This document shows, one piece after another, positions 36,739-44,055 of a stretch of 51,811 bases of DNA. Source of the stretch: Escherichia phage SECphi27. Position 1 is the stretch's first letter; every line of letters starts with the position of its first letter. The position numbers and the translations under genes are program-made. The DNA lies in the sequence record LT961732; one strand, 5' to 3'. The notes below the pieces were generated by a model. The model saw only the letters and a list, made by a program, of their open reading frames with translations. It did no database searches and was not told the DNA's origin.

Positions 36739-39700
36739 ATGGCTAAATATATGATAAGCGGCAGTAAGGGCGGAAGCAAAAAGCCATACGTGCCAAAAGA
36801 GATGGAAGATAACCTGATCTCGATAAACAAGATTAAAGTTTTGCTGGCTGTATCTGATGGCGAGTGCGATCCAGATTTCACGTTGCGCGATCTTTATCTT
36901 GATGATGTTCCGGTTATTGCCAGCGATGGCACTGTTAACTACGAGGGAGTTACGGCTGAATATCGACCGGGTACGCAGACGCAAGATTACATCCAGGGTT
37001 TTACTGACACATCAAGTGAGGTGACAGTTGCAAGAGATATTACCGGAGACAATCCTTATGTTATTTCTGTTACAAATAAAAATCTATCTGCGGTAAGAAT
37101 AAAGATCCTGATGCCAGTAGGCATTAAAACAGAGGATAACGGCGATCTTGTTGGCGTAAGGGTTGAGTATGCCGTAGATATGGCTATTGATGGCGGTTCT
37201 TATAGCGAGGTTATGAGAGATGTAATTGACGGCAAGACAAGATCAGGATACGACCGCAGCAGAAGGATTGATCTTCCTAAGTTTGATGAGCGCGTTTTAA
37301 TCCGAGTAAAGCGACTGACTCCAGACAGCACATCTTCAAAGGTGACTGATAAAATCAAGCTGCAAAGTTACGCTGAGGTTGTTGATGCAAAATTCCGCTA
37401 TCCTCTGACTGGCCTTGTATTCGTAGAATTTGACAGCGAATTGTTTCCTACGCAAATCCCTAACATTTCTATAAAAAAGAAATGGAAGATTATTAATGTG
37501 CCAAGCAACTATGATCCAATATCAAGAGAATATCACGGGTCATGGGATGGGACTTTTAAAAAAGCGTGGTCAAATAATCCCGCTTGGGTTCTTTATGATC
37601 TGGTGACAAATCAGCGTTATGGACTTGATCAGCGAGAGTTAGGAATACAGATCGACAAGTGGAGCTTATACGAGGCGGGCGTTTACTGTGATCAGAAAGT
37701 TCCAGACGGTAAGGGCGGTACTGAGCCTCGCTACCTATGCGATGTGGTGATTCAGAATCAAGTTGAGGCTTATCAGCTAATCCGTGACATTTGCTCAATC
37801 TTTCGCGGAATGAGTTTTTGGAATGGTGAGAGCTTATCAATCGTGATTGATAAGCCACGCGATCCATCATACGTGTTTACTAATGAAAACGTCATCAACG
37901 GTGATTTTCAGTACACAACCGCAAGCGAAAAAAGCATGTACACGCAGTGTAACGTGACGTTTGACGACGAACAAAACATGTATCAGCAGGACGTAGAGGG
38001 GGTTTTTGATACTGAGGCGGCATTACGATTTGGATACAATCCAACAAGCATTACAGCGATCGGGTGTACACGCAGGAGCGAAGCGAATCGTCGCGGTCGG
38101 TGGGTTTTGAAAACAAACCTTAGAAGCACTACTGTAAACTTTGCTACCGGACTAGAGGGGATGATTCCATCAATAGGTGATGTGATTGCTATCGCTGATA
38201 ATTTTCAGAGTAGCAACCTAACGTTAAACCTATCGGGCCGAGTAATGGAAGTTTCAGGATTGCAGGTTTTCGTTCCGTTTAAGGTTGATGCTCGCCCTGG
38301 TGATTTTATTATCATCAACAAGCCGGACGGCAAGCCAGTTAAGCGCACGATCTCAAAGGTTAGCGCAGACGGAAAAACAATTGAGTTAAATATCGGATTT
38401 GGTTTTGATGTTAAGCCTGATACTGTTTTTGCGATTGACCGTACTGACCTTGCGTTGCAGCAATACGTTGTGACAACTATCAGCAAGGGTGATGACGAAA
38501 ACGAGTTTACCTATTCAATCACGGCTGTGGAGTACGATCCGAACAAATACGACGAGATTGATTATGGCGTAAACATTGATGACAGGCCGACTTCAATTGT
38601 TCAGCCTGACGTGATGGCAGCGCCTGAGAACGTTAAGATCTCATCTTATTCTCGCGTCGTGCAGGGTGTTAGCGTTGAGACTATGGTTGTTTCATGGGAT
38701 AAGGTTCCTTACGCATCGCTTTATGAAATGCAGTGGCGAAAAGGTGATGGTAACTGGCTGAATACGCCGCAGACCGCTAACAAAGAGATAGAGGTAGAAG
38801 GGATTTACTCTGGCAACTACCAAGTAAGGGTGAGATCCGTTTCTGCAAGCGGTAACGCTTCCCCGTGGTCAAAGATTGCAACCGCCACTCTGACAGGTAA
38901 AGTTGGCGAGCCAGGAGCGCCGATTAATCTTACTGCTTCTGATAATGAAGTTTTTGGCATTCGTGTCAAATGGGGTATGCCGGAAGGATCAGGCGATACG
39001 GCTTACATTGAGCTTCACCAATCGCCAGACGGAACGGTTGAAAACTCAAGTCTGCTTACGCTGATTCCATATCCTCAATATGAGTATTGGCATAGCACGT
39101 TACCAGCGGGGCAAGTTGTATGGTATAGAATCCGCAGCGTTGACAGAATAGGCAACGTTTCCAGTTGGACTGACTTTGTTCGCGGTATGGCGTCAGATGA
39201 TGTTGAATCTGTTTTGGGCGACATTCTGGACAAGATTTTTGATACAGAAGCTGGTCAAGAAATCAAAGAGAACGCCATAGACAGCGCCAATAAAATCAAA
39301 GACCAGGCACAATCAATCATACAGAACGCGTTGGCAAATGATGCAGATGTGAAGTGGACGAGAGTGCAAAACGGAAAGCGCAAGGCTGAATATGGTCATG
39401 CTCTTGAGCTTATCGCCAATGAAACAGAAGCGCGCGTAACTCAAATCGAAGAGTTAAGGGCATCAATTGATGGCGAGATAACATCAAGCATCAAGACAGT
39501 GCAGGAGGCAATTGCCACTGAATCAGAGACGCGAGCGACTCAAATTCAGCAGCTTGATTCTAAATTCACAAAAGAAATCGACGGCGTGCGCAAGGATACT
39601 TCTGCAAGCATTAGCGATGTAAGGCAGACAATCACTAACGAGTCAGAAGCGCGCGCTCAGGCCGTTCAGCAGCTTGACGCTAAGTTCACGAAAGAGATAA

Positions 39701-40317
39701 ACGACCTTGACGGAGTTATCAAAACAGAAGTCGAGGCTAACATCTCAGAAGTGAAACAGGCGATCGCCAATGAGACAGAGGCAAGGGTTCAGGCTGACCA
39801 GGCATTAACAGCACGATTTGGCGACGTTGAATCTGCATTGGTTGAAAAGTTGGATTCTTGGGCGAGCGTTGATTCAGTTGGCGCTAAATACGCTATGAAA
39901 CTTGGCCTTACTTACAAAGGCCAGCAATACAGCGCAGGAATGGTGATGCAGCTTTCGCAGGGTTCATCCGGCCTTATCTCGCAAATTTTGTTTGATGCTA
40001 ACAGGTTCGCCATTATGACTAGCTCTACTGGAGGGACTTTTACTTTGCCTTTCGTGGTTGAGAATAATCAGGTTTTCATTAATAGTCTTTTGGTGAAGAA
40101 CGGTTCAATCACTAATGCGATGATTGGTAATGTGATTCAGTCAAACAACTTTGTTCAAAACCAGCAAGGATGGAGGCTTGATAAAAACGGAATCTTTGAG
40201 AATTACGGATCAACGCCAGGAGAAGGAGCTACTAAATTCACCAATGAGGGATTGAAGGTAAAAGATGCAAACGGAGTATTGAGGGTTGAAGTCGGAAGGA
40301 TTACCGGAAGCTGGTAA
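36739..40317 (+). CDS. host specificity protein / central tail fibre (lambda gpJ-like)
   Basis: About 1192 aa; fibronectin-III-like segments; repeated ETEARxxQxxQL heptad-like units near C-terminus. Confidence 0.8.
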   Translation: MAKYMISGSKGGSKKPYVPKEMEDNLISINKIKVLLAVSDGECDPDFTLRDLYLDDVPVIASDGTVNYEGVTAEYRPGTQTQDYIQGFTDTSSEVTVARDITGDNPYVISVTNKNLSAVRIKILMPVGIKTEDNGDLVGVRVEYAVDMAIDGGSYSEVMRDVIDGKTRSGYDRSRRIDLPKFDERVLIRVKRLTPDSTSSKVTDKIKLQSYAEVVDAKFRYPLTGLVFVEFDSELFPTQIPNISIKKKWKIINVPSNYDPISREYHGSWDGTFKKAWSNNPAWVLYDLVTNQRYGLDQRELGIQIDKWSLYEAGVYCDQKVPDGKGGTEPRYLCDVVIQNQVEAYQLIRDICSIFRGMSFWNGESLSIVIDKPRDPSYVFTNENVINGDFQYTTASEKSMYTQCNVTFDDEQNMYQQDVEGVFDTEAALRFGYNPTSITAIGCTRRSEANRRGRWVLKTNLRSTTVNFATGLEGMIPSIGDVIAIADNFQSSNLTLNLSGRVMEVSGLQVFVPFKVDARPGDFIIINKPDGKPVKRTISKVSADGKTIELNIGFGFDVKPDTVFAIDRTDLALQQYVVTTISKGDDENEFTYSITAVEYDPNKYDEIDYGVNIDDRPTSIVQPDVMAAPENVKISSYSRVVQGVSVETMVVSWDKVPYASLYEMQWRKGDGNWLNTPQTANKEIEVEGIYSGNYQVRVRSVSASGNASPWSKIATATLTGKVGEPGAPINLTASDNEVFGIRVKWGMPEGSGDTAYIELHQSPDGTVENSSLLTLIPYPQYEYWHSTLPAGQVVWYRIRSVDRIGNVSSWTDFVRGMASDDVESVLGDILDKIFDTEAGQEIKENAIDSANKIKDQAQSIIQNALANDADVKWTRVQNGKRKAEYGHALELIANETEARVTQIEELRASIDGEITSSIKTVQEAIATESETRATQIQQLDSKFTKEIDGVRKDTSASISDVRQTITNESEARAQAVQQLDAKFTKEINDLDGVIKTEVEANISEVKQAIANETEARVQADQALTARFGDVESALVEKLDSWASVDSVGAKYAMKLGLTYKGQQYSAGMVMQLSQGSSGLISQILFDANRFAIMTSSTGGTFTLPFVVENNQVFINSLLVKNGSITNAMIGNVIQSNNFVQNQQGWRLDKNGIFENYGSTPGEGATKFTNEGLKVKDANGVLRVEVGRITGSW

Positions 40318-40346
40318 AAAAGGGGGCATAGCCCCCTTTAATTTTA
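40314..40346. terminator. Bidirectional intrinsic terminator
   Basis: gggggc-ata-gccccc hairpin; T7 on minus strand and a T-rich run on plus strand. Confidence 0.7.
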
Positions 40347-40970
40347 ATCATAGTGTGATGCATTTATAACCAAAACAGATGAAGCGGTGTAAATACCAAC
40401 AGGTCCAGGAGTTTGTGCAACCTGCCTAGAAAAAGAGTAGATCCCGTTACCATACGCGGCAGCTTGAGACTCAAAAATCATGAATCCACCTAAAGCCGGA
40501 TTAGGAACAGAGTTTAATGCTGTCAGTGATGGCATTATGGCGCAAGGATAGCCCATGTTAACATCAAATGCGATCCCGCTTACGCCTACTTGCTTTGCAT
40601 CTAGCGGCCTCATTTTTCCATGATAAACCATTTCACCATGAGCATTATAAAACGCTATGCCGTGACTACCTGGGGGAGTCACCATATTACTAAAAGCATA
40701 AACAATAACCTCACCCTGATTATCAGATCTATCAAGTCTTATTGCGTGCCTTCCACCATTGTTAAATTGCGTGAATGATATGTATGATTTAGCGGTCAAT
40801 CTAACAAAGAAAAAACATACCCTATCAACAGGAATTGACGAAGTAAAAACGGTTCCGGTATTAGCAGATATTACGGCCCGATCAATTAGATTAACTGGAG
40901 TGAAATCTGGACTTAACCATAACGATCCGTCTGATTTTTTTATACTCATCCCGTACATTATCACCCCCAA
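40344..40970 (-). CDS. hypothetical protein (downstream half of homopolymer-split gene)
   Basis: 208-aa ORF beginning at TTG within a C5A5 run; contains GIAFYNAHGEMV repeat related to upstream ORF. Confidence 0.5.
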   Translation of the reverse strand: MGVIMYGMSIKKSDGSLWLSPDFTPVNLIDRAVISANTGTVFTSSIPVDRVCFFFVRLTAKSYISFTQFNNGGRHAIRLDRSDNQGEVIVYAFSNMVTPPGSHGIAFYNAHGEMVYHGKMRPLDAKQVGVSGIAFDVNMGYPCAIMPSLTALNSVPNPALGGFMIFESQAAAYGNGIYSFSRQVAQTPGPVGIYTASSVLVINASHYD

Positions 40971-41239
40971 AAAGTATATATATATCTTGAATCAGATCCA
41001 GAAAGCCCACTCCATGTAACGGTGTCGCCACTTACCCCTAAGTTTGGTGCGCCAGGGTCGCCACCACGCCAGGAATTCATGCCAACATATATTGCTTTCA
41101 ATGATTTACCTGGCGGCCTGTTTTGGTAAGTCTTGCTACCTGATGGCTGAGTGAATTTATCAAGGAAGAAAACAGGCGTTAAAAGTCCTGTAACTTCCCT
41201 TCCTCGATCGTCATATATTGCATAACCATATTGCGCCAT
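40961..41239 (-). CDS. hypothetical protein (upstream half of homopolymer-split gene)
   Basis: 92 aa; YGYAIYDDRGREV YD-like repeat; stop lies in homopolymer run overlapping the next ORF. Confidence 0.5.
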   Translation of the reverse strand: MAQYGYAIYDDRGREVTGLLTPVFFLDKFTQPSGSKTYQNRPPGKSLKAIYVGMNSWRGGDPGAPNLGVSGDTVTWSGLSGSDSRYIYTFWG

Positions 41240-41508
41240 TAATTACACCTCAAATCAATAAATTTACTTTCATTTTGCCAACGGTTGATAAATTTAACTT
41301 CTTTATTGTCAACGCTCAACCTGTATTGCTTTTGGCTGAATCTGTTTTCGCGGACTGCATTAATTTTGACTTCATGGAATCCGTTAACAGGGAATGTTTT
41401 AACGTTAAATTTTGCCGTGCAATCGATCTCCTTGAAGTTTCCAGTAGGCGACGCTGCGCACCCTGTCAGAGCGGCTACAGTGGCGATAACTGCGATTAAC
41501 TTTTTCAT
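41239..41508 (-). CDS. cor: small lipoprotein, Cor-like superinfection-exclusion candidate
   Basis: Signal peptide plus lipobox LTGC; about 89 aa; location beside tail fibre genes as in T1/phi80-type phages (inference). Confidence 0.5.
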   Translation of the reverse strand: MKKLIAVIATVAALTGCAASPTGNFKEIDCTAKFNVKTFPVNGFHEVKINAVRENRFSQKQYRLSVDNKEVKFINRWQNESKFIDLRCN

Positions 41509-41564
41509 CTTTATATCTCCTTAGTTGTTGTTGTTTTCAACTATACACGATCTTGGGCATCGCG

Positions 41565-41585
41565 TTTAGCAAAAAGTGCTATTTG
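41565..41585 (-). promoter_or_regulatory. Conserved intergenic motif (variant ...TTGCTAAACG), forward class
   Basis: Minus-strand read: tagcactttttgctaaacg, tatagt, RBS TAAGGAG, ATG 41508. Confidence 0.55.
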
Positions 41586-41589
41586 TTAT

Positions 41590-41850
41590 TTTTTGTTTTC
41601 CGGTGTTATCGAATTTAAGGCGGCGTAAATTTAGAGCAAATTTTATACAACATAAGATCAATAAACAATCAATAAAATAGATATATACATATAAAATCAA
41701 TAGTTTATTTATTTATGTATGTATATTTGTTTTTTCTTGTTATCTGCGTTTCTTGTGGTTTTGGTTGTTTGTGGTGATTTTTCTTTCTGAGTATCTGTAT
41801 GTGCCATCATTCATGTGTATGTATATAATCCGGCGTATCTGAGAGAACAG
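41590..41850. other. AT-rich noncoding element, paralogous to 11380-11640
   Basis: Shared blocks ttttccggtgt, ggcggcgt, tttatttatttat, T/G-rich gttt..gtggtt and gtatgtatata with the region at 11380-11640. Confidence 0.55.
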
Positions 41851-41951
41851 GGGAACAAGAAAAATAACACATATTAATCATTAACTTATGAGTCAAATCT
41901 GTTTTCTTGCCATCTGAGAACGTTTAGAAAACAGAAAAAACAAAACAGCTA

Positions 41952-41979
41952 TTGACTAAATCAACCAAATGGCTACAAT
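41952..41979 (+). promoter_or_regulatory. sigma70 promoter (TTGACT, 16 nt, TACAAT)
   Basis: ttgactaaatcaaccaaatggctacaat about 30 nt upstream of AAGGAG and ATG 42010. Confidence 0.6.
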
Positions 41980-42009
41980 GCACGCATAAAGCAACAAGGA
42001 GCATTAAAG

Positions 42010-43077
42010 ATGAGTGATTTTAACGCCTACACTAGCGAAGAAATGAGCAACGAGCTTTATCATGATCCTAACGCGTGGACGGCTGAATATGTCAGCGGTT
42101 CCAGCCTGGCGGAGATTTACAGCACTTGCCCGGCGTACTGGAAGTACAAGCCGCGCCAGGAAACTAAAGCACTTGTTTTCGGTACGCAGTCGCATACCAA
42201 CTTTGAAAGCAAGGAGCTATTCGAAAAAACATATCGCCGCGCACCGTCGCAGGATGATTTTAAAGATCTGATCACTAGCCAAACGGCGTTAGCATCAAAG
42301 CTGAAATCTTTTGGCCTGAAAGGTACGACGGGTAAACAATACCCTGAATTACTGGAAATGCTGTACAAGTGCGGCGAGGATCTCAATGTGTGGTGGCTTA
42401 TCGAAATGATGGCAGAATGCCAGGCCGCAGCGGACGGAGTGCAGTTAATAGACGCTAAAGATTATGATGCCTGTGTAGCGATGCGGCGCGTACTTGAGGC
42501 CATACCGGAGCATAACGCTTGCATGAACAGCCCAACCGCGCAGCGTGAAATGTCAATATTTGGGATCATCAACGGCGTAAAAGTAAAAGTGCGTCTTGAT
42601 CACGTTGACGTAAACAAGGATGTAAAGGCAACAATCATTAACGGTTACGACGAAAAAGGCAGGCCGATTTATGAAGAAGTCACCTATCCAGAAGCGGTGA
42701 TTATCACTGACTACAAAACAACGGTTAGCGCAAATCCGGTTGACTTCCAGCGCCTGGCTTACAATCACGGCTATTATCTTAAAATGGCTTTGCAACATGA
42801 CTTATTCAAAAAGGCGTATCCAGACGAGGAAAGGCCAGTAATTGTAAGATTGCTTGCGCAGGAGAAGAAAGAGCCTTACTTGCCGCTCGCATTCCGCATG
42901 AACATTGAGCAATTGAAGATTGGGCGCATCCAGTACATGAGCGTGATCAACAAGTTCAACGTTTGCCAGCAGTTAGATGAATGGCCTTCGTATGCAAACG
43001 GACAACCAGAAATTGATCTTGATACTCCTGATTGGGTTCGTGCTCAATTCAGGCAGTATCTGTGGCAAACTAAATAA
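42010..43077 (+). CDS. PD-(D/E)XK family exonuclease (RecB/RecE-like)
   Basis: 355 aa; RecB-family nuclease motif IITDYKTT; part of exonuclease/annealase/SSB module. Confidence 0.7.
   Translation: MSDFNAYTSEEMSNELYHDPNAWTAEYVSGSSLAEIYSTCPAYWKYKPRQETKALVFGTQSHTNFESKELFEKTYRRAPSQDDFKDLITSQTALASKLKSFGLKGTTGKQYPELLEMLYKCGEDLNVWWLIEMMAECQAAADGVQLIDAKDYDACVAMRRVLEAIPEHNACMNSPTAQREMSIFGIINGVKVKVRLDHVDVNKDVKATIINGYDEKGRPIYEEVTYPEAVIITDYKTTVSANPVDFQRLAYNHGYYLKMALQHDLFKKAYPDEERPVIVRLLAQEKKEPYLPLAFRMNIEQLKIGRIQYMSVINKFNVCQQLDEWPSYANGQPEIDLDTPDWVRAQFRQYLWQTK

Positions 43078-43398: not shown

Positions 43399-44055
<657 letters not shown>

What the first reader, a model, noticed from the sequence alone, without database searches (positions are those of the whole stretch)
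40344..41239. Homopolymer-split gene with YD-like repeats next to the Cor-like lipoprotein
Two minus-strand ORFs (92 aa and 208 aa) overlap by 10 nt exactly at a C5A5 run (40961-40975) next to a (TA)5 tract (40975-40984). Both halves carry related YD-like units (YGYAIYDDRGREV and GIAFYNAHGEMVYHG). A one-base change in the homopolymer would fuse them into one protein of about 300 aa. This could be a sequencing indel, a recent pseudogene, or slipped-strand phase variation or programmed frameshifting of a gene sitting between the tail tip gene and the superinfection-exclusion lipoprotein, a position where host-range or exclusion factors are expected.
Basis: seen in the sequence. Interest (0 to 1): 0.5.

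Follow-up and report, generated by a model that had tools for sequence, protein, structure and literature searches.

The report
Two-gene phage receptor-binding cassette, not split
The two overlapping reading frames are not a gene broken by a homopolymer: they are two old, separately translated genes of a T1-like coliphage that most likely form its BtuB receptor-binding protein, which some other phages encode as one gene.

Summary
The ORFs and the C5A5 and (TA)5 tracts exist as described. The 10-nt overlap depends on a TTG start. The conserved start is the ATG at 40958 (Met-Tyr-Gly invariant), 2 nt after the TGA of the 92-aa gene. The tracts encode the conserved C-terminus Y-I-Y-T-F-W-G, and the G-run also serves as the Shine-Dalgarno site of the next gene.

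The small and large genes are separate in T1, 933W, JenP2, LAU1, Bas04-07 and others, with different junctions and all three relative frames. Sixty listed phage records and three environmental contigs show no tract-length change. Both genes are under purifying selection (dN/dS 0.06-0.14). A pseudogene, phase variation or a conserved programmed frameshift is therefore not supported.

The cassette is 98.5-98.9% identical to that of Bas04, a BtuB-dependent phage. It is the known receptor-specificity locus downstream of gpJ. The shared motifs are a real internal repeat, but not YD/RHS repeats.

The parts
36739..40317 (+). gpJ-like central tail fibre (tail tip) gene. The cassette lies directly downstream of it, on the opposite strand.
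   Evidence: ORF list. BLASTP aligns residues 18-1209 of the listed ORF with residues 1-1192 of Bas05 J at 95.9% identity, and with T1 gp33 at 66.9%. This puts the start at the ATG at 36739.
40319..40339 (.). G+C-rich hairpin between the convergent J gene and the cassette. It is a likely bidirectional terminator.
   Evidence: Terminator scan. On the minus strand GGGGGC-TAT-GCCCCC is followed by TTTTTT (read).
40344..40958 (-). Large subunit gene (204 aa; PHROG 425, labelled 'membrane associated protein'). It is the predicted receptor-binding body of the RBP.
40956..40984 (-). Gene junction. It holds codons Y-I-Y-T-F-W-G of the small gene (the TA tract plus the T5G5 run), the TGA stop, a 2-nt spacer and the ATG of the large gene. 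GGGGG sits 5 nt before the ATG and is Shine-Dalgarno-like.
   Evidence: Sequence. Junction comparison in 8 phages. No indel in 60 listed records. Tract statistics.
40961..41239 (-). Small subunit gene (92 aa; PHROG 557, labelled 'outer membrane protein'). It is homologous to the N-terminal domain of single-chain RBPs.
   Evidence: PHROG 557 at E 4e-20, residues 3-92 on profile positions 2-92 of 100. hhalign against the N-terminus of the fused homologues gives Prob 95.8%, E 6.9e-9. 98.9% identical to bas04_0024. GAGGTG lies 6 nt upstream of the ATG, and the ATG overlaps the TAA of the lipoprotein gene (TAATG).
41239..41508 (-). Lipoprotein gene (89 aa, lipobox LTGC), the first gene of the cassette. 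It is the probable cognate superinfection-exclusion protein.
   Evidence: PHROG 1119 (Cor) at E 8e-8 and a weak Pfam LPAM_1 match. 98.9% identical to bas04_0025. Similar to Cor of T1, Bas05 and Bas07 only over residues 1-34. AAGGAG lies 8 nt upstream of the ATG.

Best explanation
The region is an ordinary three-gene cassette (lipoprotein, then the 92-aa gene, then the 204-aa gene). It is transcribed convergently to the gpJ tail-tip gene of a Warwickvirus-like T1-type coliphage.

The 92-aa and 204-aa genes are separate cistrons that are translationally coupled. The first pair shares TAATG. The second pair is TGA, 2 nt, then ATG, with the G-run acting as the ribosome-binding site.

The homopolymer and TA tracts are by-products of the conserved C-terminal codons Tyr-Ile-Tyr-Thr-Phe-Trp-Gly.

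Inferred mechanism: the two proteins assemble into one receptor-binding protein at the tail tip. The small protein plays the part that is the N-terminal domain in single-chain versions. The large protein is the beta-sandwich body that engages the outer-membrane receptor. By near-identity to phage Bas04, that receptor is BtuB. The lipoprotein would block the same receptor in infected cells.

Shown: the gene structure, its conservation, the fused homologues, the fold similarity, and identity to a BtuB-dependent phage. Inferred: physical association of the two proteins, which part docks on J, and BtuB binding itself.
For: Two genes, conserved:
- T1 gp32/gp31, 933W p64/p65, JenP2 gp22/gp21, LAU1, tonijn, BubbaBully, PTXU06 and Bas04-07 all carry the pair.
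- The PHROG profiles are separate and matched nearly in full.
- The junctions differ (TGA-TA-ATG, TAA-C-ATG, TAG-C-ATG, TAA-GTGTT-ATG, TAATG, TAA-ATG) and the frame offset is 0, 1 or 2.
- The 80-nt junction has no indel in 60 listed records.
- dN/dS is 0.055 and 0.076 against tonijn, and 0.137 and 0.132 against BubbaBully.

One functional unit:
- Twelve clusters of 309-325 aa proteins match the large-protein profile from about residue 95-115 onward.
- Their N-termini match the small family (hhalign Prob 95.8%, E 6.9e-9; hmmsearch).
- They lie immediately after J in the 18 of 20 genome loci that extend upstream of the fused gene, and in phages Vid5 and Sabo.

Receptor-binding fold:
- hhalign of the large family against DUF6453 gives Prob 82%, E 1e-5, with an offset of 117 residues. 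Since 204 + 117 = 321, this equals the length of the Oekolampad RBP.

Receptor:
- The three proteins are 98.5, 98.9 and 98.9% identical to the Bas04 cassette.
- Bas04 and Bas06, which share this inverted arrangement, are BtuB-dependent. Bas05, Bas07 and T1, which have the other arrangement, are FhuA-dependent (BASEL S5 Table; PMC8594841).
- The link between this locus and receptor specificity is stated in PMC8594841 and in bioRxiv 10.64898/2026.04.02.716166.
Against: - There is no direct evidence here that the two proteins bind each other, are in the virion, or bind BtuB.
- The profile-level link to DUF6453 is moderate (Prob 82%), and the fused-family profile gave no significant match to it.
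- One paper (PMC13164509) assumes the homologous FhuA-type pair acts in superinfection exclusion.
- Stx phages such as 933W carry a 44%-identical pair. They are, to my knowledge, not BtuB-dependent, so family membership alone does not fix the receptor.
Confidence: 0.72

Rival explanations
1. A single gene of about 300 aa was recently broken by a one-base change in the C5A5 run. This would be either a sequencing error or a fresh pseudogene.
For: A one-base change would join the frames. Fused homologues of 309-325 aa exist.
Against: The same split, with its own ATG and Shine-Dalgarno site, is present in relatives down to about 20-45% identity and with different junction sequences. Sixty listed records have the same tract length. 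Both ORFs are under purifying selection. The fused forms carry a linker of about 10 aa that is absent here.
Confidence: 0.01
2. Slipped-strand phase variation, or a programmed -1 ribosomal frameshift at G-GGG-UGA, makes some fused 298-aa protein in addition to the two separate products.
For: The large ORF is in the -1 frame. A P-site tRNA-Gly could re-pair on GGGGG next to a stop codon (sequence). A covalently joined protein is viable in other phages.
Against: There is no canonical X-XXY-YYZ heptamer in frame. Close relatives with 64-72% identical proteins (Bas06, BubbaBully, PTXU06) have a 1-nt spacer, so the large gene is in the +1 frame. Bas05 and LAU1 are in frame 0. The stop codon is always kept, and no tract-length polymorphism is seen. 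The G-run is explained by the Trp-Gly codons and the ribosome-binding site.
Confidence: 0.04
3. The two proteins are membrane proteins that work with the lipoprotein in superinfection exclusion and are not virion receptor-binding proteins. PMC13164509 assumes this for the homologous FhuA-type pair, and the PHROG labels suggest it.
For: They are co-transcribed with the lipoprotein here. [quoted passage not shown] That paper found no structural match.
Against: Neither protein has a signal peptide or a hydrophobic segment (maximum KD19 of 0.55 and 1.18). The only strong structural match is an experimentally proven RBP. In the LptD cassette a single 321-aa RBP occupies the same position next to the exclusion lipoprotein. 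Fused forms directly follow J on the same strand.
Confidence: 0.1
4. Only the 204-aa protein is the receptor-binding protein. The 92-aa protein is a non-structural assembly chaperone or specificity accessory that is not retained in the virion.
For: The preprint 10.64898/2026.04.02.716166 calls the neighbours of the RBP 'accessory proteins'. Separate tail-fibre chaperones are common in phages (own knowledge).
Confidence: 0.13

Closest known systems
BtuB-type receptor-specificity cassette downstream of gpJ in Drexlerviridae (Bas04 FritzSarasin bas04_0023-0025; Bas06 KarlJaspers), as described in the BASEL collection paper PMC8594841
   Same: The position, the inverted orientation and the three genes of 204, 92 and 89 aa are the same. 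Identity to Bas04 is 98.5-98.9% and to Bas06 56-72%.
   Different: Essentially nothing differs. The window is another isolate of the same allele. Receptor use of this particular phage was not tested.
FhuA-type cassette of T1 (gp32, gp31, Cor), N15 gp22/gp23, HK022, Bas05 and Bas07
   Same: It has a homologous small and large pair directly after J plus an exclusion lipoprotein. HMM E-values are 1e-6 to 2e-12 for the large proteins and 1e-7 to 5e-3 for the small ones, over nearly the full length. The hairpin motif recurs in the same way.
   Different: Identity is only about 20-26%. The pair is on the same strand as J and cor is on the opposite strand. The lipoprotein differs beyond its signal peptide. 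The receptor is FhuA, not BtuB.
LptD-binding RBP of phage Oekolampad / Rtp44 (Pfam DUF6453, PDB 9rpt chain C)
Single-chain ('fused') homologues in Pantoea phage Vid5, Pectobacterium phage Sabo and prophages of Pseudescherichia, Erwinia, Pantoea and Enterobacter
   Same: They hold the same two modules in the same order, directly after J.
   Different: The modules are joined by a linker of about 10 aa, and there is an extra C-terminal tail (...YDxYYxQALG). Their receptors are unknown. Identity to the window proteins is 18-25% over the concatenated small and large sequences.

Membership tests
Receptor-specificity ('bona fide RBP') locus downstream of gpJ, BtuB allele | [quoted passage not shown] | tested here: met
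   J ends at 40317 and the cassette spans 40344-41508. The layout is the same in Bas04 and Bas06.
Receptor-specificity ('bona fide RBP') locus downstream of gpJ, BtuB allele | More than 30% identity over the full length to the RBP of phages with an experimentally determined BtuB requirement | tested here: met
   98.5% identical to Bas04 and 64% to Bas06 over 204 aa. The receptors are given in the BASEL S5 Table.
Receptor-specificity ('bona fide RBP') locus downstream of gpJ, BtuB allele | Infection depends on BtuB, and the protein binds BtuB | not testable with these tools
   This needs plating on a btuB deletion host, or a binding assay or structure.
YD / RHS repeat proteins | Several tandem YD repeats recognised by the Pfam RHS_repeat model | tested here: not met
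   No Pfam family matches either protein at E <= 1. The shared unit occurs once in the small protein and twice in the large one, about 100 residues apart and not in tandem.
Programmed -1 ribosomal frameshift site | A slippery X-XXY-YYZ heptamer in the zero frame, and a frame relationship conserved among homologues | tested here: not met
   The zero-frame sequence is ACU-UUU-UGG-GGG-UGA. The frame offset between the two genes is 0, 1 or 2 in different relatives.
Phase-variable contingency locus (simple-sequence slippage) | Tract-length polymorphism among isolates that switches the reading frame | tested here: not met
   All 60 listed phage records align without indels across the 80-nt junction. 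Three environmental contigs also carry T5G5.
DUF6453 (PF20051), LptD-type siphophage RBP | Matches the Pfam model | tested here: not met
Cor superinfection-exclusion lipoprotein | A lipoprotein signal with lipobox, plus similarity of the mature part to Cor | tested here: inconclusive
   The lipobox LTGC is present and PHROG 1119 matches at E 8e-8. BLASTP to Cor of T1, Bas05 and Bas07 aligns only residues 1-34.

The most novel reading that the evidence does not exclude
The BtuB-, FhuA- and LptD-specific receptor-binding proteins of small siphophages have been described as unrelated families. On this reading they are one ancient superfamily built from a thrice-repeated hairpin-led module. In the BtuB and FhuA alleles the first module has become a separate, translationally coupled gene, giving a two-subunit RBP. 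Fusion and fission have happened more than once, for example in Pectobacterium phage Sabo (fused) against phage Amona (split with an ATGA overlap). The detached small subunit would be the adaptor between the J tip and the receptor-binding body.
Probability: 0.5. Interest if true: 0.45.

Novelty: already known. Interest (0 to 1): 0.25.

Why it matters
As first stated (a homopolymer-switched host-range gene) it would have been a new way for a lytic phage to vary its receptor protein. The evidence says that is not what is here.

What remains useful is modest:
- The current database labels ('outer membrane protein', 'membrane associated protein') are probably wrong.
- The small 'accessory' gene is best read as the detached first domain of the receptor-binding protein.
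- The fold link to the solved LptD-binding protein offers a template for modelling BtuB and FhuA recognition and for swapping cassettes to retarget phages.

Tried and rejected
- Pfam on the two split ORFs: no hit at E <= 1. The lipoprotein gave only two sub-threshold hits (DUF6491, LPAM_1).
- PDB sequence searches with both window proteins and with the fused-family profile: nothing meaningful.
- hhalign of the fused-family, small-family and large-family profiles against the single Oekolampad sequence: not significant.
- hhalign of the fused and small families against the DUF6453 profile: not significant. Only the deeper large-family profile gave a signal.
- Scans for tract-length variants in IMG/VR and in metagenomes: only 1 and 2 contigs, all wild type. 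This is too few to say much alone.
- First assumption that the cassette is the FhuA/Cor type, based on the PHROG Cor hit and the T1 homology: dropped after the BASEL S5 Table and locus comparison showed it is the BtuB allele.
- Promoter scan upstream of the lipoprotein gene: no minus-strand consensus promoter. The promoter of the cassette is not identified.

Full report
**What is in the sequence**

On the minus strand there are three consecutive ORFs between the gpJ-like tail tip gene (36739-40317, + strand) and an exonuclease gene:
- 41239-41508: an 89-aa lipoprotein with lipobox LTGC.
- 40961-41239: a 92-aa protein.
- 40344-40970 or 40344-40958: a 208-aa or 204-aa protein, depending on the start chosen.

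The 10-nt overlap arises only because the mechanical ORF list starts at a TTG. In 15 homologues down to 39% identity the N-terminus M-Y-G is invariant. The start is therefore the ATG at 40958. The mRNA reads ...UAU AUA UAU ACU UUU UGG GGG UGA UA AUG UAC GGG.... This is a stop codon, two bases, then a start codon, with GGGGG five bases upstream of the AUG as a Shine-Dalgarno-like element. The 92-aa gene in turn starts within TAATG, which overlaps the stop of the lipoprotein gene, and has GAGGTG 6 nt upstream. This is the usual look of translationally coupled phage genes.

**Is the tract more than chance?**

Homopolymer runs of five or more are common in this A+T-rich genome: 288 observed against 272 +/- 16 expected. 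Two adjacent runs occur three times against 2.6 expected. Only (TA)5 is unusual, at one occurrence against 0.08 expected.

The explanation is in the coding. The small protein ends in Y-I-Y-T-[F/Y]-W-G in the window, tonijn, BubbaBully, PTXU06, JenP2 and 933W. TAT-ATA-TAT gives the TA tract. ACT-TTT-TGG-GGG gives T5G5. Relatives that use other codons (ACG TAT TGG GGG, or ACA TTC TGG GGA) lose the T-run or the TA tract but keep the protein.

**Split gene or two genes?**

The window is 99.8% identical over this locus to Escherichia phages EC195 and EC125, and 99.7% to tunus, which the records place in Warwickvirus, Drexlerviridae. The two ORFs hit two different PHROG families nearly end to end: 557 for the small one and 425 for the large one.

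The pair is annotated as two genes in many phages:
- T1 (gp32 of 101 aa, gp31 of 229 aa), 933W, JenP2, Enterobacter phage LAU1, tonijn and PTXU06. BubbaBully also encodes the pair, but its record annotates only the small gene over that stretch.
- Bas04, Bas05, Bas06 and Bas07.

The junctions differ: TGA-TA-ATG, TAA-TA-ATG, TAA-TT-ATG, TAA-C-ATG, TAG-C-ATG, TAA-GTGTT-ATG, TAATG and TAA-ATG. The large gene therefore sits in the -1, +1 or 0 frame relative to the small one in different phages. A stop codon and a start codon are always present.

An 80-nt probe across the junction found 65 phage records. The 60 that were listed align without any indel, and 35 are identical. Three environmental contigs also carry T5G5.

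dN/dS is 0.055 (small) and 0.076 (large) against tonijn. It is 0.137 and 0.132 against BubbaBully.

None of this fits a sequencing error, a recent pseudogene, a phase-variable tract or a conserved recoding site. A rare -1 slip on G-GGG before the UGA cannot be excluded from sequence alone. Nothing in the comparative data calls for it.

**The halves do belong together**

A profile of the large protein was searched against 1.84 billion representative proteins. It found 125 relatives. Most are 200-235 aa. Twelve clusters are 309-325 aa, with the match starting at about residue 95-115.

Their N-terminal 80-90 residues are homologous to the small protein. hhalign gives Prob 95.8%, E 6.9e-9, with small residues 10-79 aligned to fused residues 11-79. 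hmmsearch hits are collinear. The motifs GSGSKxY and SGNTVSW line up.

These single-chain genes are continuous ORFs. They lie immediately downstream of a J-like gene on the same strand in prophages of Pseudescherichia, Enterobacter, Erwinia, Pantoea, Kalamiella, Rosenbergiella and Lonsdalea. They occur in 128 IMG/VR contigs, and in Pantoea phage Vid5 and Pectobacterium phage Sabo.

Phage Amona has the same flanking sequence as Sabo but a divergent allele that is split, with an ATGA stop/start overlap. Fusion or fission has therefore happened more than once in this family. The split in this lineage, however, is shared with relatives as distant as T1, 933W and JenP2, so it long predates this phage.

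**What the proteins are**

Neither protein has a signal peptide or a hydrophobic segment. The 'membrane protein' labels therefore have no support in the sequence.

In Oekolampad the cassette has the same layout as here: J on one strand, then the RBP gene and an exclusion lipoprotein gene on the other. The difference is that one 321-aa gene stands where the window has the small and large genes.

A profile of the large family aligns to the DUF6453 family of that RBP with Prob 82%, E 1e-5. Window residues 79-152 align to Oekolampad residues 196-266. That is an offset of 117 residues, and 204 + 117 = 321. This is consistent with the small protein corresponding to the N-terminal part of the single-chain RBP.

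The cryo-EM work behind 9rpt shows that the Oekolampad protein inserts into the extracellular face of LptD. It also shows that the neighbouring lipoprotein of phage Rtp blocks binding from the periplasmic side (bioRxiv 10.1101/2025.07.07.663478).

**Which receptor?**

I first assumed FhuA, because of the Cor-like hit and the T1 homology. The BASEL S5 Table corrects this.
- Bas04 FritzSarasin and Bas06 KarlJaspers carry the inverted cassette (204 aa, 92 or 91 aa, 89 aa). Both need BtuB.
- Bas05 and Bas07 carry J, then small, then large on one strand and a 75-aa Cor on the other, the same layout as T1. Both need FhuA. T1's own FhuA dependence is taken from the literature, since it is not one of the Bas rows in the S5 Table.

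The window's three proteins are 98.5%, 98.9% and 98.9% identical to those of Bas04. They are 64%, 72% and 56% identical to those of Bas06.

The window's J protein is closest to that of the FhuA phage Bas05, at 95.9%. The cassette, not J, therefore tracks the receptor. This agrees with the published view of this locus as an exchangeable receptor-specificity module (PMC8594841; bioRxiv 10.64898/2026.04.02.716166).

The FhuA-type pair is a distant homologue of the window's pair. HMM E-values are 1e-6 to 2e-12 for the large proteins and 1e-7 to 5e-3 for the small ones.

**The 'YD-like' units**

The motif [Y/H]G-h-x-h-x-[D/N]-x-x-G-x-h occurs at three places:
- the start of the small protein (YGYAIYDDRGREV),
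- the start of the large protein (YGMSIKKSDGSLW),
- residue 99 of the large protein (HGIAFYNAHGEMV).

It occurs at the same three places in LAU1, and at the small-protein start and mid-large positions in T1 by the regular expression used. In the fused-homologue model the equivalents of the two large-protein copies form beta-hairpins.

Profile comparisons give these results:
- small against the N-half of large: Prob 88%, E 3e-6 over 51 columns;
- small residues 3-16 against the start of the C-half: Prob 86%;
- N-half against C-half of large: Prob 85%, E 6e-6 over 45 columns.

Several phage proteins of about 95 aa in BFVD superpose on half of the model. It is not an RHS/YD repeat (no Pfam match).

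**Comparison with what is known, and verdict**

The cassette is the already described BtuB allele of the receptor-specificity locus downstream of gpJ, and it is nearly identical to that of a published phage.

Two points that I did not find in the papers I read are secondary to the finding:
- PMC13164509 reports no structural match for the homologous FhuA-type pair of KanT1/T1 and guesses an exclusion role.
- The 2026 preprint calls the four RBP families unrelated and calls the neighbours 'accessory proteins'.

Against these, my results suggest that the small gene is the detached first domain of the RBP. They also suggest that the BtuB, FhuA and LptD types share a fold.

The homopolymer story is not supported. 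The 'one unit of about 300 aa' idea is supported in an evolutionary and probably structural sense.

Noticed in passing
L001:3717-3995 (phage 933W, record 43701-43979): The 933W homologue of the small gene most likely starts at a TTG preceded by AGGAGG and encodes 92 aa (LEYGFAIYNRNN...). The RefSeq CDS NP_049524 starts 51 nt later at a GTG and is only 75 aa.
   Followed up: partly
L112:2480-3420 (Pectobacterium phage Amona): A 94-aa small gene (2480-2764) is not annotated. The large gene probably starts at 2761 (ATGA overlap), not at 2710 as deposited. The neighbouring phage Sabo (L111:2480-3436) has a fused 318-aa allele between identical flanks.
   Followed up: partly
window 36739-40317 versus 40344-41508: The J protein is 95.9% identical to that of the FhuA-dependent phage Bas05. 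The cassette next to it is 98.5-98.9% identical to that of the BtuB-dependent Bas04, whose J is only 88.5% identical and shorter. This is a clear case of cassette exchange at the J boundary.
   Followed up: partly
window 40150-40317 (C-terminus of J) and L001:3600-3700 (C-terminus of the 933W tail fibre p63): The last residues of J (GWRLDKNGIFENYG...GLKVKDANGVLRVEVGRITGSW) and of 933W p63 (IEVYDQNGRLAVRIGRLR) carry hairpin-like units. These resemble the unit repeated in the small and large proteins and might reflect how the RBP docks on the fibre tip.
   Followed up: no
L001:3717-4618 and many Stx-converting phage records: Short-tailed Stx phages (933W, Sakai VT2 and about 100 records) carry a 44%-identical small/large pair between their tail fibre gene and lom. 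Its role there is unclear, because these phages are reported to use a different receptor (BamA, from my own knowledge).
   Followed up: no
hits H56 and H114-H117 (MG065643 and related 'Campylobacter phage' records, 49,946 bp): Records labelled Campylobacter jejuni phages carry a T1-like cassette whose large protein is 64% identical to the window's. The host label looks doubtful.
   Followed up: no
window 41239-41508: The 89-aa lipoprotein matches the PHROG Cor family. By BLASTP it resembles Cor of T1, Bas05 and Bas07 only in the signal peptide and lipobox (residues 1-34). Its mature part is specific to the BtuB-type cassettes.
   Followed up: partly
window 41509-42010: The roughly 500-nt A+T-rich spacer between the cassette and the divergent exonuclease gene has no minus-strand sigma-70 consensus match in the scan. 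The promoter of the cassette is therefore not identified.
   Followed up: no
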